Shown here piece after piece: positions 4,776-60,943 of a DNA stretch of 64,000 nucleotides. The notes beneath the pieces are model-generated. The model searched no databases. It was not told where the DNA came from and saw only the letters and a program-made list of their open reading frames with translations. The first letter of the stretch is position 1. Each line of letters opens with the position of its first letter. Source of the DNA: Dehalococcoidia bacterium (GTDB lineage: Bacteria > Chloroflexota > Dehalococcoidia > UBA2979); the NCBI GenBank assembly GCA_965219085.1, contig OZ244720.1:1792001-1856000 (forward strand), read 5' to 3'. Made by a program: the position numbers and the translations under genes.

Positions 4776-7393
4776 CCAAGCGGCCACTCGAGGGCGTACG
4801 CGTACTGGACTTCACGTGGGTGCGCGCCGGGCCGTGGGCCACGCGCTGGCTGTCCGTGATGGGCGCCGAGGTGATCAAGGTCGAATGGCCGGACCCGCGG
4901 CTCGCCTTCACGGGCCGCACGGGCAGCCTCGGCGACGCGAGCGCGGGCCCGAACTCGAACGGCCACTTCAACGACCAGAACGCCGAGAAGCTGAGCATCA
5001 CCATCAACGTGCGCAGCCCGAAGGGCCTGCAGATCATCAAGGACCTGCTGCGCTCGACGGACATCGTGATCGAGAACTTCAGCGCCGGCGTGCTGCGCGA
5101 CTGGGGCCTCTCCTTCGACGAGATGCGCGCGATCAAGCCCGACCTCATCTACGTCTCGATGGCCGGCTTCGGCCAGACGGGGCCGCACGCGCACTACACG
5201 ACGTTCGGACCCTCGGCGCAGGCGCTGTCTGGCCTGACGTTCCTGTCGGGGCTGCCCGACGCGCCGCCCGCCGGGTGGGGCTGGTCGTACATGGACGACA
5301 CCGGCGGCATGCACGGCGCGATTGCCGCGCTGACCGCGCTTCACCACAGGCGCGCCACCGGCGAGGGCCAGCACGTCGACCTCTCGCAGGTCGCGACCGG
5401 CATGACGCTGACCGGCCCGGCGCTCCTCGACCTCAGCGCCAACGGGCGGGGGTCGAGGCGATCCGGCTACCCGCCGGGCAACCGCACGCACTGGCCGGGC
5501 AGCGAGCTGCTCAACAACTACCGCGGCCGCCACGCAGCGCCGCACAACGCCTACCGCACCCTGGGCGATGGACACCACGACTGGGCCGTCATCGCCTGCT
5601 TCTCCGACGAGGAGTGGCGCACCCTCGTCGACGTCATGGGCTCGCCCGAGTGGGCGACCGCCCCGCAGTTCGACACGCTGCGGGGTCGCCTCGCGCACCA
5701 GCTCGAGATCGACGAGGGCATCGCCGCGTGGGCGGCGACCATCGAGAAGTACGAGCTGGCCGACCGCTGCCAGGCGGCAGGCGTGCGCGCCGCGCCGGTG
5801 CAGAGCAACCAGGACCGCGTCGAGCACGACCCGCAGCTGCGCCACCGGGGGATGTTCGAGCCGGTGCTGCATCCTGTCATCGGCGAGCACGCGATGCAGC
5901 AGGCGCCGTTCAAGCTCTCAGCGACGCCGGTGCCGGTGGAGACGGGGGGGCCGCTGCTCGGAGCGGACAACGTCCCGATCCTCGGCGGCATGCTCGGCAT
6001 GACGTGGGACGAGATCGCCGGCGGTTACGAGGACGGCACGCTCTGGCCCGCGGGCCAGCCGGTCGAGCGCTACCTGCTGGAGCCGCCGGCGCAGATGCCG
6101 CCACCGCACGTCGAGGATCCACTCCCACCGGTGACGGTCGAGCGTCGCCACTCCGGCGGCGCCCTCGGCGACCTGCGCGTGATCGAGATTGGGGGCGAGA
6201 TCGGCGAGTGGGCCGCGAAGCTCATGGCCGACCAGGGCGCCGACGTGATCAAGATCGAGCCTCCCCGCGGCTCAGCCGAGCGCGAGATCGGCCCGTTCTA
6301 CGAGGACGTGCCGGACGCCGAGCGCAGCCTCCACTTCTGGCACTACAACACCAGCAAGCGCGGTATCACCCTGGACGTGACGACCGAGGACGGCCGCGCC
6401 CTGTTCCGCCGCCTCGTCGCCAGCGCGGACGTGCTCATCGACTCGCTGCCGCTCGGCGAGCTCGACTCGCTCGGGCTCGGGTACGAGGCGCTGAGCGCCG
6501 GCAACCCGGGCCTCATCATGTGCTCGATCACGCCGTTCGGGCAGAGCGGGCCGTGGACCGGCTGGCGCACCTCGGACCTCATCCAGCTCGCCGTAGGCGG
6601 GCAGATGGGGGAGTGTGGCTACGACGAGGTGGACGTGCCCGGACGCCCGCCGATCGCGCCCGGCGGCGGCAACGCCTGGCACATCGGCAGTCACTACGCC
6701 TACATCGCGATCATGGGCGCGGTGTTCCACCGCGGCGTCACCGGCGAGGGCCAGTTCATCGACGCCTCCGTCCACGATGCCTGCGCGCTCACGACCGAGG
6801 GCGGCGTGACGGAGTGGATCTACGGTCGGACGGTGCGCCAGCGACAGACCGGCCGCCACGCGTCGTCGAGGCCCACGCCGCCCTCGCAGTACCGCTGCGC
6901 CGACGGCATCTACGTGAACACGCTGGCGTTCCCGCTGCTCATGAACCCGGCGGGCATCCGCCGCCTCGCCGAGTGGTTCGACGCGCACGGCCTCGCCGAC
7001 GACCTGCTCGACGACAAGTACGCCGACCCGGAGGTCATCGCGGCGAACGAGCAGCACGTGAAGGACGTGCTGCGCGAGTTCATCGCCTCGCAGCCCTCGG
7101 AGACCGTCTACCACGAGGGCCAGAACCGCGGCTTCTCGATGGGCCCGGTGCGCGCACCCGAGGAGGTGATGGCGGACCAGCACTTCCACGAGCGCGGCTT
7201 CTTCGTCGAGGTCGACCACCCCGACATCGGCCGCACGCTCACGTACCCGGGCGCGCAGGCCGTCTACGGCGCGTCGCCGTGGCGCATCCAGCGCCGCGCG
7301 CCGCACATCGGCGAGCACAACGCCGAGGTCTACGGCGACCTCGGCCTCTCCACGCTGGAGCTGGCGGCGCTGCGCGAGGGCGGGGTGCTGTAG
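4772..7393 (+). CDS. Two-domain fused CaiB/BaiF CoA-transferase
   Basis: Two tandem class III CoA-transferase domains (PLEGVRVLDF...; ALGDLRVIE...NTSKRG). Confidence 0.92.
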   Translation: MTKRPLEGVRVLDFTWVRAGPWATRWLSVMGAEVIKVEWPDPRLAFTGRTGSLGDASAGPNSNGHFNDQNAEKLSITINVRSPKGLQIIKDLLRSTDIVIENFSAGVLRDWGLSFDEMRAIKPDLIYVSMAGFGQTGPHAHYTTFGPSAQALSGLTFLSGLPDAPPAGWGWSYMDDTGGMHGAIAALTALHHRRATGEGQHVDLSQVATGMTLTGPALLDLSANGRGSRRSGYPPGNRTHWPGSELLNNYRGRHAAPHNAYRTLGDGHHDWAVIACFSDEEWRTLVDVMGSPEWATAPQFDTLRGRLAHQLEIDEGIAAWAATIEKYELADRCQAAGVRAAPVQSNQDRVEHDPQLRHRGMFEPVLHPVIGEHAMQQAPFKLSATPVPVETGGPLLGADNVPILGGMLGMTWDEIAGGYEDGTLWPAGQPVERYLLEPPAQMPPPHVEDPLPPVTVERRHSGGALGDLRVIEIGGEIGEWAAKLMADQGADVIKIEPPRGSAEREIGPFYEDVPDAERSLHFWHYNTSKRGITLDVTTEDGRALFRRLVASADVLIDSLPLGELDSLGLGYEALSAGNPGLIMCSITPFGQSGPWTGWRTSDLIQLAVGGQMGECGYDEVDVPGRPPIAPGGGNAWHIGSHYAYIAIMGAVFHRGVTGEGQFIDASVHDACALTTEGGVTEWIYGRTVRQRQTGRHASSRPTPPSQYRCADGIYVNTLAFPLLMNPAGIRRLAEWFDAHGLADDLLDDKYADPEVIAANEQHVKDVLREFIASQPSETVYHEGQNRGFSMGPVRAPEEVMADQHFHERGFFVEVDHPDIGRTLTYPGAQAVYGASPWRIQRRAPHIGEHNAEVYGDLGLSTLELAALREGGVL

Positions 7394-8050
7394 CAGGGTG
7401 CTGAAAAAGGCGCGGCCATCTGGCAGGATAGCGAAGGCGGCGGGGGCGTAGCCTGGGAGGCAGCCCCGTGCGAGGCGACGCTGAGCGTCAGACCAACATG
7501 TTGCTGGCGGTGACGCCGGACTCCTTCATCCCGGACGACCACCCGATCCGACGCATCAAGCCGATCGTCGATGCAGCGCTGCAGCGGCTCTCGCCGCTCT
7601 TCGGCACGATGTACGCAACGAGCGGGCGGCCCTCGATCCCGCCCGAGCACCTGCTCAAGGCGAGCCTGCTGATCGCGCTCTACTCGATCCGCAGCGAGCG
7701 CCAGTTCTGCGAGCGGCTGCGCTACGACCTGCTCTTCAAGTGGTTCTTGGACCTCAACATCTCAGACGCGCCGTTCGACGCCTCGAGCTTCTCGAAGAAC
7801 CGCGAGCGCCTGCTCGCAGCCGATGTCGCGCGCGCCTTCTTCGCCGAGGTGGTGGCCGAGGCAAAGCGCCGCCGGCTGCTCTCGGCCGAGCACTTCACGG
7901 TGGACGGGACGCTGCTCGAGGCGTGGGCGTCGCTCAAGAGATGGCATGAGGGCCGGTCTCTTCCTCAAGGGGGATACTCGCCCCCGAAACAGCGGCCTCG
8001 ATGGGCCAGAACGGCTCTTTGCGGAGCTTTGACGAGGTAGGAGACCGGCC

Positions 8051-9139
8051 GTGCAGCAGGATACCGCAACGACGTGGAGCATTGAGGGCAAGGAAGGGTC
8101 AGGGGTCACCATCGGCCTCGACGTGGGCGACCGCTACACCCACGTCCACGCCCTCGGCGCCGGCGGGGAGGTGGTACGTGAGAGGCGCGTCCGCACCACG
8201 ACGGCAGCGCTGGGCATGGTGCTGACCGGCCTCCCCCCATCGCGGGTCGTGATCGAGGCGGGGCCGCGCTCGCCGTGGCTGAGCCGCCTCATGGCGGACC
8301 TCGGCCACGAGGTGGTCGTCGCCAACCCGCGCCAGGTCGCGCTGATCGCCGGCAGCCAGCGCAAGACCGACCGGCTCGACGCCGAGTGGCTGGCGCGGCT
8401 GGGGCGCTTCGACCCCCAGTTGCTCGCCCCGATCCGCCACCGCAGCGAGGCGAGCCAGCACGACCTCGCCGTGGTGCGCGCCCGCGACGCGCTGGTGCGC
8501 TCGCGGACGCTGCTCATCAACCACGTGCGCGGGGCCGTCAAGGCCTGCGGAGCCGCGTTGCCGTCGTGCACGGCCGAGGCGTTCCACCGCAAGACGGCGG
8601 ACCACATCCCCGACGGGCTGCGCCCGGCGCTGCTGCCGCTGGTGGAGGCGATCGGCGAGCTGACCGCGCGCATCGCGGCGGCCGGCCGCGAGATCGAGGC
8701 GTTGTGCGAGGCTCACTCCGAGACCGCGGCGCTGCGCCAGGTCACGGGCGTCGGGCCGATCACCGCGCTCACGTTCGTGCTGACGATCGAGGATCCTGGG
8801 CGCTTCCCGAAGAACCGCGAGGTCGGCGCCTACCTCGGGCTCGTGCCGAGGCAGCGCGACTCGGGCGAGCGCACGCCGCAACTCGGCATCGGCAAGAGCG
8901 GCGATCCGCACCTGCGGCGGCTGCTGGTGCAGGCCGCGCACTACATCCTCGGCCCCTTCGGGCCCGACACCGACCTGCGCCGCTGGGGTGAGCGCTACAC
9001 CGCTACGGGGGCCGGTAACGCGAAGAAGCGCGCCGTCGTGGGCGTCGCGAGGCGGCTGGCGGTGCTGCTGCTCGCGCTGTGGAAGACCGGCGAGGTCTAC
9101 GAGCCGTTGCGCGACGCCGCGGCGCAGGAGGCCGCGTAG
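8051..9139 (+). CDS. IS110/IS1111-family DEDD recombinase (transposase)
   Basis: IGLDVG, VIEAG, KTDRLDA (DEDD), GVGPIT, AYLGLVP..RDSG. Confidence 0.93.
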   Translation: MQQDTATTWSIEGKEGSGVTIGLDVGDRYTHVHALGAGGEVVRERRVRTTTAALGMVLTGLPPSRVVIEAGPRSPWLSRLMADLGHEVVVANPRQVALIAGSQRKTDRLDAEWLARLGRFDPQLLAPIRHRSEASQHDLAVVRARDALVRSRTLLINHVRGAVKACGAALPSCTAEAFHRKTADHIPDGLRPALLPLVEAIGELTARIAAAGREIEALCEAHSETAALRQVTGVGPITALTFVLTIEDPGRFPKNREVGAYLGLVPRQRDSGERTPQLGIGKSGDPHLRRLLVQAAHYILGPFGPDTDLRRWGERYTATGAGNAKKRAVVGVARRLAVLLLALWKTGEVYEPLRDAAAQEAA

Positions 9140-9199
9140 CAAGGCGCGGCGCCGAAGCAACCGACCAGGAGAGCGAGACTGAGACGGACCTGGGAGGAG

Positions 9200-9400
9200 G
9201 CCCAGCAAACCAACCACTGCACGTGATGCCGGGCAACGGGCGACTGCGAGGCGGTAGCGGTCCAACAAGGACGTTCAAGAGTTGGCAGCGCCCCCTGGAA
9301 GCAGGATGTGCCTTCATGCACCGGGCCCGATACGTGGCCCATCAAAGAGTGCGGATAGAAGCTCGGCACAGGCTCCGTCAGGGGACATCACGAGCGGATC
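9200..9400 (+). ncRNA. Putative seekRNA/bridge RNA of the IS1111-type element (ends approximate)
   Basis: 9250-9258 GGCGGTAGC is the reverse complement of the right target flank; 9272-9281 CGTTCAAGAG matches the left flank CGCTCAAGAG; 9355-9361 ATAGAAG matches the element end. Confidence 0.72.
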
Positions 9401-9631
9401 GGCCCCGATGTCGAGGAGCGCCACGCCCCGAGGAGGAGGCCGCCACGTCGGCCTTGCAGAAAGACCGTCCCTCATAGAAGCTACCGCCCGCGCGACGAGC
9501 AGGAGCCACCCCTGGGCGGACGCAACCCGGATGTCGACTTCCGCGGGCGGCGGCGCAGCCGCGATACGCATAGTTCCGGCACGGACCCGGAGGCGCGGCT
9601 GTACACGAAGACACCCCAGGACGCTAAGGGG

Positions 9632-10855
9632 TCAAGCAGCGAGGTCCTCGTGGGTGTAACGGTGTCCCCAGGCGGTCGTCTCGTCGTAGGGCAAGCGGCG
9701 CTTCAGGCAGCCATGTAGGTAGCCGACGAGACGGTTGCCGAGGGCGCGGAGCGCCTGGTGGTGGAGGTCGCCCGCGGCGCGCCGCCGATCGTAGAACTCG
9801 CGGCAGCCGGGGCTGGCCTGCAGGGAGCACAGCGCCCACTGGTCGACTGCGTCGTAGAGGCGCCGGTTGCGGACGAAGCGGGCTTTCACGGTGTGCTTGC
9901 GGCCGGATGCTACCGTCAGCGGCGACGTGCCGGCGTAGTTCCTGCGGGACTTCGCCGACTCGTAGCGTTCGGGGTCATCCCCGAACTCGCCAAGCACCCG
10001 GGCGCCGAGGACCACGCCGAGACCGGGCAGGGAACGGTAGATACCGGCGTCCGGGTGCTGCTCAAAATGGCTCGCGAGCTCGGCCTCGAGCTCCTTGATC
10101 TGACGGTTGATCTCGCCGATCACCCTCATTGCCGCACTGGTGCTCGCGGCGAATGCCTTGCTCACCGCGGGCGGAGCCTCGAGCTGCGGTGAGCGCAGCG
10201 CGTCGCGGACCTCGGCGGCGCGCCGCTCGATGTTGCGCCGGCGGCCGCCGCGGCGCAGCGCGGAGCGGATCTGGGTGATGCTCAGCCGCGCCGCCTCGCG
10301 CGGGCCAGGCGCTGTCGCCAGCACGCCCACCGCGTCGTCGTGCGCGAGGTCGGGGAAGGCCTCCAGCGCACCCGGAAAGTACTCCCTGAGCGCGTTGCGC
10401 AGCCGGTTGGTCTGGCGGACGCGGTCCCAGATCAACTGCTGGTGGGCGCGGGCGAGGATGCGCACCGCGGCGGCTTCGTCGCTGTCGCCGGCGACCTCCC
10501 GGTGGTTGTGCCGGTCGGTGCGGACGAGGTCGGCGAGCAGCTTCGCGTCGCCGGCGTCGGACTTGGCGCCGCCGACGTGGTGGCGGTCGCGGTAACGCGA
10601 CGCCGAGCGCGGGTTGATGGCGTAGACGTGGTAGCCGGCCGCGAGCAGTGCCGCGACCCAGGGGCCGCGGTCCGTCTCGATGCCGACGATCACCTCACCC
10701 GGTCCTGAGGCGTACCCGGCGACCAGTCCGTGCAGGGCAGTGATGCCCTCCACCCCTTCGGGCAGACGCCGGGCGGCGAGCCGCTCGCCCGCGTCGTTCA
10801 TGAGATGGACGTCGTGGTGGTCTTCGGACCAGTCATCGCCCAGGTACAAGGCCAT
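9632..10855 (-). CDS. IS110-family DEDD recombinase (transposase)
   Basis: LGDDWS, GIETD, KSDAGDA, SLPGLG, YAGTSP..ASG motifs. Confidence 0.93.
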   Translation of the reverse strand: MALYLGDDWSEDHHDVHLMNDAGERLAARRLPEGVEGITALHGLVAGYASGPGEVIVGIETDRGPWVAALLAAGYHVYAINPRSASRYRDRHHVGGAKSDAGDAKLLADLVRTDRHNHREVAGDSDEAAAVRILARAHQQLIWDRVRQTNRLRNALREYFPGALEAFPDLAHDDAVGVLATAPGPREAARLSITQIRSALRRGGRRRNIERRAAEVRDALRSPQLEAPPAVSKAFAASTSAAMRVIGEINRQIKELEAELASHFEQHPDAGIYRSLPGLGVVLGARVLGEFGDDPERYESAKSRRNYAGTSPLTVASGRKHTVKARFVRNRRLYDAVDQWALCSLQASPGCREFYDRRRAAGDLHHQALRALGNRLVGYLHGCLKRRLPYDETTAWGHRYTHEDLAA

Positions 10856-10879
10856 CGTGTTTCAGTTCCTCTCCCGCTT

Positions 10880-11100
10880 CGCGCTGCTCGGTGCGACCCG
10901 GCGGGTTGGTTCCTGCGACGGCCTAATGGATCAGTGCTCGATGGCACGACACCCCATGAGTGCTGCAGAACAACCCGGAATACCAGCAGGGGCTCGGTCT
11001 TCGTGAAGCGGTCCAGAAGCCGCAGGGATCAGCTGAGAGCTCACCGGCTGGGCAGGGTCCAGAACCAGTCTGCCAGAGAACCTCTGGCCGCTGGTCGGGC
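10880..11100 (-). ncRNA. Putative bridge RNA (ends approximate)
   Basis: Minus strand in order: CTGATCCCT (11032-11024), hairpin, CACGAAG (11005-10999), TGGGGTGTC (10956-10948), hairpin, CCATTAG (10929-10923); these match target-left, target-right, donor-left and donor-right. Confidence 0.8.
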
Positions 11101-11541
11101 CCCATTAGGGGTCGGGGCAGACGGCGAAGCTCAGCTACATGGGCCATCTGCTCACCGAGAACCGTCACGGTCTGGTGCTGGACGTGGAGTTGACCGAGGC
11201 GAACGGGTACGCCGAGCGCGAGGCGGCGGTCACGATGCTGGAGCGCAGCGTGAGCGGCTGCGGGACGCTGGGCGCCGACCGCGGCTACGACACGCGCGGC
11301 TTCGTGGCGGCGCTGCGCGCTCGCGGCGTGACGCCGCACGTGGCGCAGCACGACCGCGGCCGCCGCAGCGCCGTGGATGGGCGCACCACGCGGCATCGCG
11401 GCTACAGGCAGAGTCAGAAGCGGCGCAAGATCGTGGAGCAGGTCTTCGGCTGGATGAAGACCGTGGGCGGCGGGCGCAAGCTGCGTTTCGTGGGCCGCGA
11501 GCGCAACCGCTGTTGGCTGGAGCTCACCGCCGCCGCCTACA

Positions 11542-13176
11542 CCCGAATCCACCGATCGAAGCTTGACGGGGCGGGATGCCGGGCTGCCGGAGAGTTCGGC
11601 GGGCGTGCCGGTGTTCGCGGGGCGGGCCGGAGCCAGGAGCGGTCGCTCAGCGCAGCTCGGGGGCGCTGAGGGCGCGGGCGCAAGGCGTGCGCGGGCATGC
11701 TGGCGCGAGCCTCGGAGGGGGGCCGGCGCTGTGAGCGGTCGTCAGGCCGGGAGCGGTAACGCCCGTAGTCGCGCGAGCGCGGCTGCCAGCTGCCCGGCCC
11801 AGGGCCAGCGCCTGGGGAGGTGCAGGGTCCAGCGCCGGGCCGAGTGGGTGAGCCGTCCGGCGAGGGCGAAATAGCGCCGCCTGAGCGTCCTGGTGGTGAC
11901 GATTCCCTCGCCGAGCCCGAGCCGCGCCGTCCAGCGGGCGAGGTGTGCGCGATCACCTGCACCGCGAGCCATGCCGCGTTCGCGGCGAAGCGGCCCGAGG
12001 GGAGATGGTTGAGCCCGACGCCGTACTTGAGGTCGCGGATCGCGTTCTCGATCTCGGCGTGACGGCGATGGTCGGTCTCGAGCTCCAGCAGCTCCCCCGC
12101 GCGGTCGCTGATGAAGGCGTGGTAGCTGTACGTCGCGAAGAGCGCGAGCTGTGAGCCGGGCGTCGGCTGGACGCGCCGCACGATGAGCCGCACCGGGGTG
12201 GCGTCCTTCGCGTGCCGGAACGGGGTGTAGGTCGTCTCGGCGACAGCGGCGCCGCCCGGCAGCCAGTACGGGATCGGCGTCCAGTCCGCTTCCGGGATCG
12301 CCTCGATCAGCGTGCGTACGTTCGGTTGCTGGCGAATCGTGACCGAGAAGCGGACATCCAGCGCGCGGCAGACGGCGACGACAGCGTGGTTGTAGAAGCC
12401 GCTGTCGGCGCGCACCGTGAGCTGCCCGCTCGCCCCGGCGTCGCGCACCCGCGCCACCGTCTCACGCAGGAAGTGGGCGGCGCCGCGGGCAGTGTTGGCG
12501 CGGCCCTCGCGCAGCCGCGCCATCAGCACGTCACCCGTCCCGGCCGCAACGGCGAGCAGCGGGTGGTAGCCGTGCACGCCCGTGTAGCCGTGGTGGCGGG
12601 CGCCCTCCTTGGCCAGGCCGTAGGTCTCACAGATCGTCGAGTCGAGGTCGATCGTGAACGGCGCCGCGCCGGGTCCCGCCCCGGCCGCCCATGCGCGGGC
12701 GAGCAATGCGCGGCTGAGGCGGTCGAGCTGGCGGACGTGGCCCCAGCGGAAGCTGCGCAGGAAGGTCCCGAGGGTGGACGGCGCCTTGACCGTGCAACCC
12801 AGCACGCTCGCCGTCCCGCCGGCGCGCAACGCATCGGCGTCGTCGATGCAGTCACCGCCCGCGAGCGCCGAGGCGATGAGGGTCAGCAGCTTGTCGCCGG
12901 CGTTCGCCCGGCCCGGCGCGTCACCGAGGTCGACGCAGCTGTCGGCGAGCTCTTGCAGACCGAGATGCTGGGCGAGCGTGGCCGGGAGCAGCAGGCCCGC
13001 GTGGTCCACGAGGCGGTCGTCATCGAAGGCGATGTCTATCCGGTCGGGGTCGCTCGTTGGTAGCATCGAATGGGTGCTCCCTGTGGCTGTGACGTGATTC
13101 GGCAAAACCCATTGTCCCAGCTACAGCGGAGCACCCAACCGCAGCCGCTCGCACGCCCTTCTTCGGTGGATCAAGG
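11542..13176 (-). mobile_element. IS1380-family insertion sequence
   Basis: IRs CCCGAATCCACCGA / TCGGTGGATCAAGG; 5-bp target duplication CTACA (11537-41, 13177-81). Confidence 0.92.
11742..13066 (-). pseudogene. IS1380 transposase with a frameshift near 11945
   Basis: IDLDST, GYHPL, VRADSGF, HRRHAEIENAIRDLK motifs; the C-terminus (LARW...TLRRRYFALAGRLTHSARR) continues in another frame. Confidence 0.85.
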
Positions 13177-13508
13177 CTACAACCTCGTGCGCATGGCCAC
13201 GCTCGAGACCGCCGCGGCGTAGGCGCAGTGCGCCCTCCGCCCCGCCAGGGAGCCCTCAGAGGCCCCCGGGGGCCGGTCAGGAGGCCACGATCACGAACCC
13301 GGAGGCGGCTTGAAGCCGCCTCTCGCCACTCCGAGACCCCGGAAGGCGCTTCTTCAGCACCCTGCTAGCTCCGCCTGGCACGCCCCGTGCCGCCGTCATG
13401 TGGGGGCTCGTCGTCCCCGTCGCCGAGGTCAGGCAACCTCGATCGACGGCGATGCCTCGCGGCACGAAGGTGCGGGGGATCCGTCGCTCGGCGGCGACCG
13501 GTGGCGCC

Positions 13509-59542: not shown

Positions 59543-60943
59543 TCAAGCTCCGGCGAGGGGTTGTAGCGTAGGCAGCGGACGGGCCGGCGCCGGAGCGCTC
59601 TGCGACTCCTGACCGCGGCGGCCCGTCCCCTTGCGCGAGCCCGCGCGGGGGCCGAGTCGCTGGCGGCGCACCTCGGCTGGGACGCTGTAGCGCTCGGCGA
59701 CGATGCTCCGCCCCTCGGCCACGGAGACGGGCTGGCCGTCGCAGTCGCGGATGACGTAGCGCTCGCCGCGCCGCCAGCAGGCGACGACGCGCGTGAGCAG
59801 CGTGGTGGCGATATGGCAGAGCGCCGAGTTGTGGTGCTTGCCGGCGGCGACCATGAGCCGCTGGTAACGGGCGGCGAGCGTGGGGTCGATGCGCCGCGCA
59901 TGGTCGGCGGCGATGAAGATCGCCTCGCGCAGGGCGGCGTCGCCGCGGCGGGTCGGACGGCCGTGGCGGCCGCTCACGCCGGAGGCGTTGAGCGAGGGCA
60001 CGAGCCCGCTGAAGGAGCGCACCCCGGCGAGGGAGCGGAAGCGGTTGGGATCGCCGAGGCGGGCGAGGATCTGGGGACCGGTGACGGGACCGATGCCCGG
60101 CGCCGAGGTGAGGATCGCCTCGGGGTCGGCCTCCTCGAAGAGGAGCGCGATGCGCTCGTCGAGCGCGGCGACCTCGTCTGTGAGGATGAGGGCGAGCCTG
60201 GCCTCGACGGCGATGTCCTCGGCGAGCTGGTCGAAGTCGAAGGCGTCCTCCCAGAGCGCGAGCGTCTCCTCCGCGGCGTCCAGCAGCGCCGCAGCGTGCT
60301 CCGGGCCCCAATGGCCGCGCGAGTGGCGATACAGGAAGCGCCCGAGGCGCGCCCGGCCGAGCCGTTCCACCGTGTCGGGACAGGCGTAGCCGGCTGCAAG
60401 GAACCGCAGCGGGGTCTTGTTGGCGAGGTCGGCGCGGAAGGCCTCCAGCCACTTCGGCCCGAGCAGCTCCAGCAGCGCGTCGAGCCGCGCCAGCGACTTC
60501 GTGCGCCGCTGCACCAGGCTCTGACGCAGCCGCGTCGCGCGCCGCAGCGGGTCGCCCGGCCCGAGGCCGTGCTCGTCGTGCAGCCCCTCGGGGTGCAGCA
60601 GCGGGAGCCGCGCCAGCAGACGCGAGTCGAGCCGGTCGCTCTTGGTGTGCTTATGGTAGTAGTCGCGCAGGTCCGCCGAGCGCTCCGGCGGCACCAGCAC
60701 GACGCGTGCGCCGCGACGGCGGAACCAGGCGGCGAGCGCCACCCAGGCGTTGCGCGTGGGCTCCAGGATCACCAGCACCTCGGTGTCTGTTCCTCGCTCG
60801 GGCAGCATCGCCCACAGCCGCTCGAGGTCTTCGGCCCCGGTGCGGAAGCGGTGTCCGCTCCAGAGGAAGCGCCCGCTCTCGTCGGCGAGGCTCGCCTGGT
60901 GGGCGGCCCGGGACGCGACGTCGATTCCCAACCACAGCTGCAT
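59543..60943 (-). CDS. IS110-family DEDD recombinase (transposase)
   Basis: LGIDVA, ILEPT, KSDRLDS, SAPGIG, FSGLVP..NASG. Confidence 0.93.
   Translation of the reverse strand: MQLWLGIDVASRAAHQASLADESGRFLWSGHRFRTGAEDLERLWAMLPERGTDTEVLVILEPTRNAWVALAAWFRRRGARVVLVPPERSADLRDYYHKHTKSDRLDSRLLARLPLLHPEGLHDEHGLGPGDPLRRATRLRQSLVQRRTKSLARLDALLELLGPKWLEAFRADLANKTPLRFLAAGYACPDTVERLGRARLGRFLYRHSRGHWGPEHAAALLDAAEETLALWEDAFDFDQLAEDIAVEARLALILTDEVAALDERIALLFEEADPEAILTSAPGIGPVTGPQILARLGDPNRFRSLAGVRSFSGLVPSLNASGVSGRHGRPTRRGDAALREAIFIAADHARRIDPTLAARYQRLMVAAGKHHNSALCHIATTLLTRVVACWRRGERYVIRDCDGQPVSVAEGRSIVAERYSVPAEVRRQRLGPRAGSRKGTGRRGQESQSAPAPARPLPTLQPLAGA

What the first reader, a model, noticed from the sequence alone, without database searches (positions are those of the whole stretch)
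10856..11108. Complete four-guide bridge RNA readable in IS110 #2
Minus-strand target is CCGACCC-CT-TCGTG and the circle junction is TGGGGTGT-CT-AATGG. The left end reads in order: CTGATCCCT (left target; 2 differences, both U:G-compatible), GCGG..CCGC hairpin, CACGAAG (exact complement of core plus right target), TGGGGTGTC (exact left donor), GTGC..GCAC hairpin, CCATTAG (exact complement of core plus right donor). This is the target-loop then donor-loop layout known for IS110-group bridge RNAs, so it is a candidate programmable recombinase ortholog.
Basis: partly seen in the sequence, partly recalled or inferred. Interest (0 to 1): 0.85.

Follow-up and report, generated by a model that had tools for sequence, protein, structure and literature searches.

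The report
Bridge RNA in an IS110 element
This is a mobile DNA element of the IS110 family whose left end encodes a guide ("bridge") RNA of the already described type, so it is a well-supported but ordinary new example of a known RNA-guided recombinase system.

Summary
Window 9609-11108 (minus strand) is a 1.5-kb IS110-group insertion sequence bounded by a duplicated CT. It has six near-identical copies in this genome. In 20000 shuffles the donor guides were rare (16 and 49 shuffles) and the right target guide fairly rare (466). The left target guide taken alone is not significant (10836). Relatives provide the decisive evidence. Across 19 distinct guide sets from 69 loci with both ends located, each element's target-loop guides match its own insertion site (9.95 of 12 positions) far better than other elements' sites (4.88 of 12; 0 of 20000 permutations). 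The stems covary, the donor loop is conserved, and a -35/-10 promoter would form only at the circle junction. The 407-aa protein carries the DEDD and Ser catalytic residues of IS621. Transcription and activity are not shown. This is a new member of a known kind: bridge RNAs had already been predicted in 85.7% of IS110-group elements. Extra points are a 7-nt right target guide, rU:dG wobbles, handshake positions, and an IS5-family transposase gene as the natural target. Interest is modest.

The parts
9609..11108 (-). Complete IS110-group insertion sequence, including the CT at both ends (1498 bp plus one CT).
   Evidence: Six copies in the genome at about 100% identity. Ends and flanks were read. 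Empty paralogous sites are shown.
10856..11108 (-). Left end (253 nt), non-coding. This is the finding's interval.
   Evidence: It is much longer than the right end of about 22 nt, as in the IS110 group.
10904..11097 (-). Predicted bridge RNA. Its extent is the covariance-model match. The true 5' and 3' ends are not determined.
   Evidence: Model R1 scores 161.9 bits here. The five other copies score 168.5 bits.
11063..11096 (-). 5' stem-loop.
   Evidence: Consensus helices mapped onto the window copy.
10975..11061 (-). Target-binding loop module. An outer stem (11061-11037 with 10995-10975) encloses the LTG, the inner hairpin and the RTG.
   Evidence: In helix 5, 4 of 15 pairs show changes on both sides and 96.9% of cells are paired.
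11024..11032 (-). Left target guide CUGAUCC-CU. It has the same sense as left target plus core, so it pairs with the bottom strand. Two positions are rU:dG wobbles.
   Evidence: Not significant on its own.
11008..11023 (-). Inner hairpin of the target loop (GCGG..CCGC).
   Evidence: In helix 6, 4 of 6 pairs show changes on both sides.
10999..11005 (-). Right target guide CACGA-AG, the exact complement of CT-TCGTG on the top strand.
   Evidence: found in 466 of 20000 shuffles.
10997..10998 (-). Candidate handshake guide of the target loop (AC). It is complementary to donor positions 6-7 (GT).
   Evidence: AC in 71 and AU in 7 of 78 sequences. The concept comes from PMC11208158.
10904..10974 (-). 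Donor-binding loop module. An outer stem (10974-10965 with 10916-10904) encloses the LDG, the hairpin and the RDG.
   Evidence: Helices 7-8 (4 of 9 pairs change on both sides).
10948..10956 (-). Left donor guide UGGGGUGU-C. It has the same sense as the right-end terminus plus the first core base.
   Evidence: conserved in relatives. Found in 16 of 20000 shuffles.
10934..10947 (-). Inner hairpin of the donor loop (GUGCC..GAGCAC).
   Evidence: Invariant in all 26 aligned sequences. It therefore gives no covariation evidence.
10923..10929 (-). Right donor guide CCAUU-AG, the exact complement of CT-AATGG at the left-end terminus.
   Evidence: Found in 49 of 20000 shuffles.
10921..10922 (-). Candidate handshake guide of the donor loop. 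The first base, G, is complementary to target position 7 (C).
   Evidence: Watson-Crick in 74 of 76 loci and wobble in the other 2. It switches to C where the target has G, in L127 and L128.
9632..10855 (-). Recombinase gene, 407 aa (DEDD RuvC-like domain plus Tnp domain).
   Evidence: PF01548 E 2.7e-37 and PF02371 E 4.1e-11. NF033542 'IS110 family RNA-guided transposase' scores 191.6 bits against a cut-off of 140. The only PDB match is IS621.
9609..9635 (-). Right end. It holds the -35-like TTGACC (9635-9630, overlapping the stop codon), the left donor TGGGGTGT (9618-9611) and the core CT (9610-9609).
11109..11115 (-). Left target CCGACCC in the interrupted IS5-family transposase gene.
9604..9608 (-). 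Right target TCGTG in the interrupted IS5-family transposase gene.

Best explanation
Window 9609-11108 (minus strand) is an intact IS110-group insertion sequence. Its left end encodes a bridge RNA of about 190-195 nt, made of a 5' stem-loop, a target-binding loop and a donor-binding loop.

Proposed mechanism, inferred by analogy with IS621:
- The element excises as a circle. [quoted passage not shown] This promoter would drive the RNA and the recombinase gene.
- The donor loop holds the junction. [quoted passage not shown]
- The target loop holds a 14-bp site, CCGACCC-CT-TCGTG. CUGAUCCCU pairs with the bottom strand, using two rU:dG wobbles. CACGAAG pairs with the top strand.
- The DEDD/Ser recombinase exchanges strands at the CT core. 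The bases just 3' of each right-hand guide can act as handshake guides.

Shown here: the anatomy, the conservation, the structural covariation and the guide-target covariation. Inferred: transcription, circle formation and catalysis.
For: - Ends and copies. There are six copies at about 100% identity. Single-CT empty sites define the ends precisely.
- Protein. PF01548 and PF02371 match. NF033542 scores 191.6 bits against a cut-off of 140. The only PDB match is the IS621 transposase, E 5.6e-8. In that alignment D8, D100, D103 and S317-G318 align with IS621 D11, D102, D105 and S241-G242. E60 (GIE) sits two residues from IS621 CIE E60; that last pairing is my reading. The residue roles come from PMC11208158.
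- Layout. The four guides lie in the published positions and on the published strands. All four together occurred in 0 of 20000 shuffles.
- Relatives. 80 loci at 66-86% aa identity were fetched. The target loop is hypervariable exactly at the guide columns, while the donor loop is nearly constant.
- Guide-target covariation. 69 loci had both ends located, giving 51 distinct guide/target combinations and 19 distinct guide pairs. A guide pair matches its own site at 9.95 of 12 non-core positions and other elements' sites at 4.88 of 12. No permutation of 20000 reached this. The own target ranks first, alone or tied, for 15 of 19 guide pairs. Examples: L102 and L126 match 9 of 9 in the LTG. L051 (85% aa identity) has the same inner hairpin as the window copy but different guides that match its own site.
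- Structure (26 sequences, 50 pairs). 92.8% of cells are paired, against 30.1-47.1% when the partners are slid. 17 pairs change on both sides, against a shuffled mean of 11.0 (0 of 500 shuffles reached 17).
- Mismatch asymmetry. Of 84 LTG mismatches, 41 have a guide U opposite a target C, which is a possible rU:dG wobble. Only 4 are the reverse type.
- Junction promoter. TTGAC-N lies 17-18 bp before the junction-spanning TCTAAT in 23 of 24 distinct right ends.
- Handshake position. It is complementary to the target in 74 of 76 loci and covaries in L127 and L128.
- Natural specificity. All 5 IS5-family copies with the exact 14-bp site are occupied. The 8 variant sites, each with a true mismatch, are empty.
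Against: - No transcript, 5' end or circle junction was observed. The only RNA-library data are assembled contigs of relatives, which cannot show transcription.
- Folding the single sequence gives no support. The z-score is -0.30. The consensus structure scores -30.8 kcal/mol against an MFE of -72.7 kcal/mol.
- The LTG match alone is at chance level, appearing in 10836 of 20000 shuffles.
- The structure tested was derived from the same alignment. The relatives are close kin from about 20 genome records, so the counts overstate independence.
- The donor-loop hairpin never varies, so it gives no covariation evidence.
- The window copy has a private 1-nt insertion in the base of the target-loop stem. 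It scores 161.9 bits against 168.5 for the other copies, and 5 of its 50 consensus pairs are non-standard.
- Three of the five occupied IS5 sites are copies of one composite. Independent insertions number about four, not six.
- No Rfam family matched the left end.
Confidence: 0.9

Rival explanations
1. The element family has a bridge RNA, but this particular copy, or the family in this genome, is no longer active. On this reading it is a decaying relic whose RNA is impaired by the 1-nt insertion and which has no target left.
For: - The window copy has a private extra C near 11050-11052 and a lower model score of 161.9 against 168.5 bits.
- No exact, perfect or wobble-tolerant target site remains in the genome, 0 in each class.
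- Three of the occupied sites are duplicates of one composite.
Against: - All six copies keep a full open frame.
- They differ by only 3 internal positions, which points to recent spread.
- All catalytic residues are present.
- The extra C lies in a C-run and is absent from contigs of two DNA runs (table 4). It may be an assembly error.
- Insertions sit in at least three different flank variants plus one unrelated site.
Confidence: 0.12
2. The internal copies of the end sequences are DNA-level subterminal repeats bound by the transposase. No guide RNA would be involved.
For: The LDG and RDG are copies or complements of the termini and are invariant among relatives. That pattern would also fit protein-binding repeats.
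Against: - This does not explain why the hypervariable first loop tracks each element's insertion site.
- It does not explain the compensatory changes in the stems around the loops.
- It does not explain the excess of 41 U-versus-C over 4 C-versus-T mismatches, which is typical of RNA wobble.
- The homologous IS621 system needs the RNA in vitro (PMC11208160).
Confidence: 0.03
3. The guide matches are chance complementarity in a GC-rich 5' untranslated region.
For: The LTG match alone is at chance level, 10836 of 20000 shuffles. The single-sequence fold is unremarkable, z -0.30.
Against: All four guides together occurred in 0 of 20000 shuffles. The same columns covary with the targets in the relatives, with 0 of 20000 permutations reaching the observed value.
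Confidence: 0.01

Closest known systems
IS621 bridge RNA and recombinase of Escherichia coli (IS110 group). Sources: Durrant et al. 2024, PMC11208160, passages read. Hiraizumi et al. 2024, PMC11208158, passages and section 7 read.
   Same: - The RNA lies in a long left end.
- It has a 5' stem-loop followed by a target loop and a donor loop, each built as stem, left guide, stem-loop, right guide.
- Left guides pair with the bottom strand and right guides with the top strand, core included.
- The core is CT.
- The catalytic residues are DEDD plus Ser.
[quoted passage not shown]
- The donor loop is more conserved than the target loop.
- Handshake positions lie next to the right-hand guides.
   Different: - The protein is 407 aa against 326 aa. 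Similarity is weak (35.9 bits, E 5.6e-8).
- The RTG is 7 nt, of which 5 are non-core. The native IS621 RTG is described as only 4 bp long (bioRxiv 10.64898/2026.08.31.748434, section 8).
- The natural target is an IS5-family transposase gene.
- The closest relatives sit in MAGs labelled Dehalococcoidia.
- Nothing here has been tested experimentally.
Sister elements in metagenome-assembled genomes labelled Dehalococcoidia, and a few labelled Actinomycetota (loci L051-L130).
   Same: They share the RNA scaffold. Model R1 matches in 80 of 80 loci, 26 of which were used to build it. The donor guides are the same or nearly so. The recombinases are 66-86% identical.
   Different: They carry different target guides and different insertion sites. 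For example, L051 has the same inner hairpin but different guides: its LTG is TTACTTCCC and the reverse complement of its RTG stretch is CTTCATTTT. The window element also has 2 extra nt in the 5' linker of the target loop, which are absent from the other 25 aligned sequences.
IS1111-group elements with the guide RNA in the right end, as described in PMC11208160 (passages read).
   Same: They belong to the same DEDD recombinase family and use RNA-guided choice of target and donor.
   Different: There the RNA lies in a long right end and there are long subterminal inverted repeats. Here the left end is 253 nt, the right end is about 22 nt, and the RNA is in the left end.

Membership tests
IS110-group bridge recombinase / bridge RNA system | A recombinase with an N-terminal DEDD RuvC-like domain and a C-terminal Tnp domain carrying a catalytic Ser. 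| tested here: met
   PF01548 and PF02371 match. NF033542 scores 191.6 bits against a cut-off of 140. D8, D100, D103 and S317 align with IS621 D11, D102, D105 and S241. E60 is offset by 2 in the HMMER alignment and was matched by eye.
IS110-group bridge recombinase / bridge RNA system | A long non-coding left end and a short right end, which is the IS110-group layout as opposed to IS1111. | tested here: met
   The left end is 253 nt and the right end is about 22 nt after the stop codon.
IS110-group bridge recombinase / bridge RNA system | A core dinucleotide shared by donor and target and present at both junctions. | tested here: met
   CT is present at both ends of all 6 copies. Empty sites carry a single CT.
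IS110-group bridge recombinase / bridge RNA system | An RNA with two internal loops, each closed by an outer stem and enclosing a stem-loop. | tested here: met
   RNAalifold recovers the target-loop stems. The named structure has 92.8% of cells paired and 17 of 50 pairs changed on both sides, against 30-47% paired in slid controls. Caveat: the structure was derived from the same alignment.
IS110-group bridge recombinase / bridge RNA system | [quoted passage not shown] The 3' side matches the top strand over 4-7 nt, core included. | tested here: met
   LTG is 9 nt (7 exact plus 2 wobble). RTG is 7 nt, LDG 9 nt and RDG 7 nt. The criterion is from PMC11208160.
IS110-group bridge recombinase / bridge RNA system | Target-loop guides covary with insertion sites across orthologues. 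| tested here: met
   Own sites match at 9.95 of 12 positions and other elements' sites at 4.88 of 12, over 19 guide pairs. No permutation of 20000 reached this.
IS110-group bridge recombinase / bridge RNA system | The donor loop is more conserved than the target loop. | tested here: met
   The LDG and RDG are nearly invariant, while the LTG and RTG columns are hypervariable.
IS110-group bridge recombinase / bridge RNA system | [quoted passage not shown] | tested here: inconclusive
   By sequence only, TTGACC lies 18 bp from the junction-spanning TCTAAT. The -35 element is kept in 23 of 24 distinct right ends. No promoter-like site was found in the integrated copy. Function was not tested and no circle was seen.
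IS110-group bridge recombinase / bridge RNA system | The RNA is actually transcribed. | tested here: inconclusive
   Only contigs from two RNA libraries, 90-95% alike, overlap the left end. Contigs cannot show transcription, strand or ends.
IS110-group bridge recombinase / bridge RNA system | Recombination depends on the RNA and can be reprogrammed through the guides. | not testable with these tools
   This needs a reconstituted assay.
Curated RNA family (Rfam 15) | A match to a curated bridge RNA covariance model. | tested here: inconclusive
   No family matched the left end at E up to 10. I could not establish whether Rfam 15 holds a bridge RNA family at all.
IS1111 group | The guide RNA lies in a long right end, with long subterminal inverted repeats. 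| tested here: not met
   The right end is about 22 nt and the RNA lies in the left end.

The most novel reading that the evidence does not exclude
The target guide may be naturally degenerate, and the element may specialise in hitting another IS.

- The two U residues of the LTG read C in the main target by rU:dG wobble. They read T in the one unrelated insertion site (L006).
- That L006 site matches the right arm 7 of 7 but the left arm only 4 of 7. It would be a natural 'half-match' insertion of the kind recently described for IS621.
- With its 5-nt non-core RTG, this Dehalococcoidia-associated clade would give a natural series of closely related scaffolds carrying many different guide sets. 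Such a series could be used to learn the rules of wobble tolerance, arm dominance and specificity.
- It may also yield a more specific editing ortholog than IS621.
Probability: 0.25. Interest if true: 0.45.

Novelty: new member of a known kind. Interest (0 to 1): 0.3.

Why it matters
- Tool value. The locus adds a fully annotated bridge recombinase ortholog with a 14-bp natural recognition site: 7 left, CT, 5 right. Its close relatives share one scaffold but carry at least 19 different guide pairs. That is a useful natural data set for guide-design rules and for choosing orthologs to test as genome-editing tools.
- Biology. It shows RNA-guided, sequence-specific insertion of one IS into the transposase gene of another. 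Every exact site in the genome has been used.
- Limits. It opens no new question. The system, its layout and its wide distribution are in print (PMC11208160, PMC11208158).

Tried and rejected
- Rfam scan of 9000-12000. No family matched the left end. The only hit above its gathering score was Ms_AS-4, inside the recombinase gene on the opposite strand.
- Single-sequence folding. It was uninformative: z -0.30, and the MFE pairs the loops with each other.
- RNAalifold on the whole left end. It paired the terminal CTAATGG with the RDG. This is a trivial consequence of RDG-RD complementarity, and that part of the structure was dropped. The terminus probably lies upstream of the transcription start.
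- Promoter and terminator scan of the integrated copy. Nothing was found.
- Sequencing runs. 22 runs were listed and 4 were laid. All are assembled contigs. Contigs from two RNA libraries, 90-95% alike, overlap 10915-11083 and 10942-11109. One of them runs on into an unrelated flank. They come from relatives and cannot show transcription, strand or ends. No go-back (circle) joint was listed. One DNA contig joins the two flanks across the element, as an empty-site variant with 39 replaced letters. Parts without RNA cover are not interpreted.
- Class-wide scan with model R1. It matched in 1 of 151 genomes, which was G000 itself. Only 17 candidates per genome were scored, under stricter filters. 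The result is 'not found in those searched', not absence.
- Model R1 on other elements. It found nothing in the other IS110-family loci of this genome that I gave it (L007, L030, L031, L034, L035, L043). Elsewhere in the window it found only the one site.
- I first took the DDE_Tnp_1_4 gene (11537-13105) for the interrupted host gene. One search showed that the host is an IS5-family element and that the DDE_Tnp_1_4 element is a third insertion into it.
- Literature. 'bridge RNA' together with 'Dehalococcoidia' gave 0 papers. A looser five-term search listed only Chloroflexota papers that do not mention bridge RNA. Durrant et al.'s supplementary tables of predicted orthologues could not be seen because supplements are closed. 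They may already list this clade.
- Not done: a search of public collections for IS5 variants carrying the perfectly matched site. It would have required typing a joined and altered pattern.
Full report
**What is there.** On the minus strand a 407-aa open frame (9632-10855) follows a 253-nt non-coding stretch (10856-11108). The protein has the two IS110 domains, PF01548 (E 2.7e-37) and PF02371 (E 4.1e-11). It passes NCBI's model 'IS110 family RNA-guided transposase' with 191.6 bits against a cut-off of 140. Its only relative among solved structures is the IS621 transposase (8wt6, E 5.6e-8). In that alignment D8, D100, D103 and S317-G318 fall on IS621 D11, D102, D105 and S241-G242. The PDB chain carries a 2-residue N-terminal offset. 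E60 in GIE lies two residues from where HMMER placed IS621's CIE glutamate, and that pairing is my reading. The roles of these residues are taken from PMC11208158 (passages).

**Ends, copies and target.**
- A search of the window's own genome with the element plus 50-nt flanks found six copies at about 100% identity. It also found places where the two flanks are contiguous.
- All six copies start CT-AATGGGG. Four end GGGGTGT-CT, and L002 and L003 carry one extra G in that G-run.
- Five copies sit at CCGACCC-CT-TCGTG. One (L006) sits in an unrelated place at GGGATCT-CT-TCGTG.
- The element is therefore 1498 bp plus a duplicated CT, at window 9609-11108.
- Internally the six copies differ at only three positions. 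The window copy has a private extra C in a C-run near 11050-11052. It also has a private synonymous change in codon 51, GGA instead of GGG. L002 and L003 have the extra G in the right-end G-run.
- The interrupted gene is an IS5-family transposase (NF033581, 253.1 bits), with DUF772 and DDE_Tnp_1 domains.
- Aligning an uninterrupted copy (L008) to the window shows one IS5-family element cut into four pieces by three insertions: 7391-7940, 9468-9610, 11107-11541 and 13177-13368.
- The three insertions are another IS110-family element (about 7941-9467), the element studied here, and a DDE_Tnp_1_4 element (about 11542-13176).
- Three of the five occupied IS5 sites (window, L002, L003) share this composite arrangement at identical spacing. 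They are copies of one event.
- L004 and L005 lie in different flank variants.
- I therefore count about four independent insertions.

**The observation.** Coordinates are in the parts list. The two LTG differences from the target are both a guide U opposite a top-strand C. That means a U facing G on the bottom strand, so the claim 'U:G-compatible' is right.

In 20000 dinucleotide-preserving shuffles of the left end:
- the exact LDG occurred in 16;
- the exact RDG in 49;
- the exact RTG in 466;
- all four together in 0;
- a 9-mer within two mismatches of the left target in 10836.

The real sequence also has a second such 9-mer at element position 112. So three of the four guides stand on their own statistically, and the LTG does not.

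**Relatives.** A scan of one genome per species found 251 stretches encoding a relative, and the best 80 were kept. They are 66-86% identical at the protein level. Most lie in a dozen MAGs labelled Dehalococcoidia. A few are labelled Actinomycetota, Actinomycetes or Smaragdicoccus.

Aligning the 300 nt upstream of each gene (79 loci plus the window, 78 distinct sequences) gave the pattern expected of bridge RNAs:
- The second loop is almost constant. TGGGGTGTC, or TGGGATGTC/TGGGGTGGC in a few, is followed by a GTGCC..GAGCAC hairpin and then CATTAG.
- The first loop is hypervariable exactly at the two guide stretches, between conserved stems.

PMC11208160 reports the same contrast (extended-data legend).

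**Guide-target covariation.** I located both ends of each relative by the conserved termini and read off its flanks. I then took as LTG the 9 nt before the inner hairpin, and as RTG the 9 nt before the 3' outer stem.
- Dropped rows: loci with a missing end, and L078 and L092, whose left ends are interrupted.
- That left 69 loci, 51 distinct guide/target combinations and 19 distinct guide pairs.
- Counting only non-core positions, a guide pair matches its own commonest site at 9.95 of 12 positions. It matches the sites of other guide pairs at 4.88 of 12. None of 20000 permutations reached the observed value.
- The own site ranks first, alone or tied, for 15 of 19 guide pairs. It ranks fifth for 3 and second for 1. 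Those four belong to the group of elements that share a C-rich repeat target, or to L095, whose register is unclear.
- L102 and L126 match 9 of 9 in the LTG. L117 and L125 match 8 of 9.
- L051 shares the window element's inner hairpin letter for letter. Its guides differ and match its own site.
- L099-L101 are off by one column in my extraction. Read in register they match 8 of 9, which is my reading.

Among 84 LTG mismatches in 336 non-core cells, 41 are a guide U opposite a target C and 6 a guide G opposite a target A. Both types are wobble-compatible. The reverse C-versus-T type occurs 4 times. Mismatches cluster at positions 1-5 and are rare at positions 6-7 next to the core. These cells are not independent events, and the targets are C-rich, so this is supporting evidence only. 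The 14 RTG mismatches in 240 cells include no wobble type.

**Structure.**
- RNAalifold on 26 distinct left ends recovered the outer and inner stems of the first loop with compensatory changes.
- A trimmed alignment also gave a 5' stem-loop and the outer stem of the second loop.
- The named structure has 50 pairs in 9 helices, with loop-internal pairs removed.
- In it, 92.8% of cells are paired, against 30.1-47.1% when partners are slid by 1-3 columns.
- 17 pairs change on both sides. The shuffled mean is 11.0, and 0 of 500 shuffles reached 17.
- The structure was derived from this same alignment, which favours it.
- The donor-loop hairpin never varies and so says nothing either way.
- In the window copy 45 of the 50 pairs are standard pairs.
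- The module sizes are about 87 nt for the first and 71 nt for the second (the outer-stem spans in the parts list). Their order fits the IS621 description of stem, left guide, stem-loop and right guide (section 7 of PMC11208158).
- An AGCAC-U motif precedes both left guides in most relatives. This echoes the pseudo-symmetry described in that section.
- Single-sequence thermodynamics give no support. The z-score is -0.30. The consensus fold scores -30.8 against an MFE of -72.7 kcal/mol.

**Covariance model.** A model built from 26 sequences (190 positions, 48 pairs) finds exactly the six copies in the own genome. Five score 168.5 bits and the window copy 161.9. It matches in all 80 relative loci, 26 of which were used to build it and the rest of which are close kin. 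It finds nothing in six other IS110-family loci of this genome.

1. *Junction promoter.* TTGACC (9635-9630, overlapping the stop codon) lies 18 bp upstream of TCT at the right-end terminus. Together with AAT of the left end this would make TCTAAT only in a circle. A hexamer matching TTGACA in at least 5 of 6 letters sits at 17-18 bp in 23 of 24 distinct right ends. The integrated copy has no promoter-like site. IS621 does the same (PMC11208158). Here it is sequence inference only.
2. *Handshake positions.* The two bases after the RTG are AC, complementary to donor positions 6-7 (GT). They are AC in 71 and AU in 7 of 78 sequences. The base after the RDG is complementary to target position 7 in 74 of 76 loci and wobble in the other 2. 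It is C instead of G precisely in L127 and L128, whose targets have G there.

**Natural specificity.** No unoccupied copy of the exact site, of the perfectly matched site or of a wobble-tolerant version remains in the genome, 0 in each class. Seven IS5-family copies carry CCGCTCC-CT-TTGTG and one carries CCGAACC-CT-TCTTG. All eight are empty. Each has at least one true mismatch to the guides. The L006 site matches the right arm and core 7 of 7 but the left arm only 4 of 7. This resembles the one-arm 'half-match' insertions reported for IS621 (bioRxiv 10.64898/2026.08.31.748434, abstract and section 8). That link is a lead, not a test.

**What is missing.** I have no evidence of a transcript, its ends, a circle or activity. 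The public runs that hold the element are assembled contigs. Two RNA libraries contain contigs 90-95% alike over part of the left end, which cannot show transcription.

**Comparison and verdict.** This works like, and by every testable criterion belongs to, the IS110-group bridge RNA systems defined on IS621. It differs in four ways:
- a larger and distantly related recombinase;
- a longer RTG;
- two extra linker bases in the target loop, unique among the 26 aligned sequences;
- its host lineage and its target.

Bridge RNAs were predicted in 85.7% of IS110-group elements in ISfinder (PMC11208160). The finding is therefore a new member of a known kind. I found no paper that mentions bridge RNA together with Dehalococcoidia (0 papers), but the supplementary orthologue lists could not be read. 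Confidence that the left end encodes a genuine bridge RNA is 0.9. Interest is 0.3.

Noticed in passing
window 7391-13368 (+): One IS5-family element is split into four pieces (7391-7940, 9468-9610, 11107-11541, 13177-13368) by three different insertions. These are an IS110-family element, the element studied here, and a DDE_Tnp_1_4 element. The same composite occurs three times in the genome.
   Followed up: partly
window 7941-9467 (gene 8051-9139, +): A second IS110-family element (362 aa, PF01548 and PF02371) is inserted about 140 bp from the studied one in the same IS5 gene. Model R1 does not match it. Its own guide RNA, if it has one, was not examined.
   Followed up: no
window 11542-13176 (gene 11537-13105, -): A DDE_Tnp_1_4 transposase (522 aa, PF13701 E 5.5e-45) forms a third insertion into the same IS5-family copy.
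   Followed up: no
window 9950-10031 (+): An Rfam match to Ms_AS-4 (RF02464) scores 63.9 bits against a gathering score of 50, E 8.4e-9. It lies antisense inside the Tnp-domain part of the recombinase gene. It may only reflect conserved coding sequence of IS110 transposases.
   Followed up: no
window about 11050-11052 and 10703: The window copy has a private extra C in a C-run and a private synonymous base. The other five genomic copies and contigs of two DNA runs (tables 3 and 4) lack both. This is either a recent mutation or a homopolymer assembly error.
   Followed up: partly
L002 and L003 (own genome), right-end terminus: These two copies carry one extra G in the GGGG run of the left donor. 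This would mismatch only the outermost LDG position and would lengthen the junction promoter spacer to 19 bp.
   Followed up: no
own genome G000, whole: There are 27 matches to the IS110 DEDD domain in a 3.3-Mb genome. They fall into several distinct clades judged by score and frame length. A third IS110-family gene lies in the window at about 60458-60931 (-).
   Followed up: no
L078 and L092: In these two relatives the bridge RNA region is split or displaced by about 1.2-1.5 kb from the recombinase gene (model hits at L092 1087-1270, and at L078 737-891 plus 2393-2445). Something has apparently inserted into the left end.
   Followed up: no
L056-L062, L073-L075, L079-L091, L105-L112 and others: Many sister elements insert at a recurring C-rich site, roughly CCCCGCC-CT-CTCCCGC followed by a partial palindrome. 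It looks like a dispersed genomic repeat.
   Followed up: no
L055 and L109: Two model matches lie in the same orientation about 1.6-1.7 kb apart. Two copies of the element therefore sit almost back to back.
   Followed up: no
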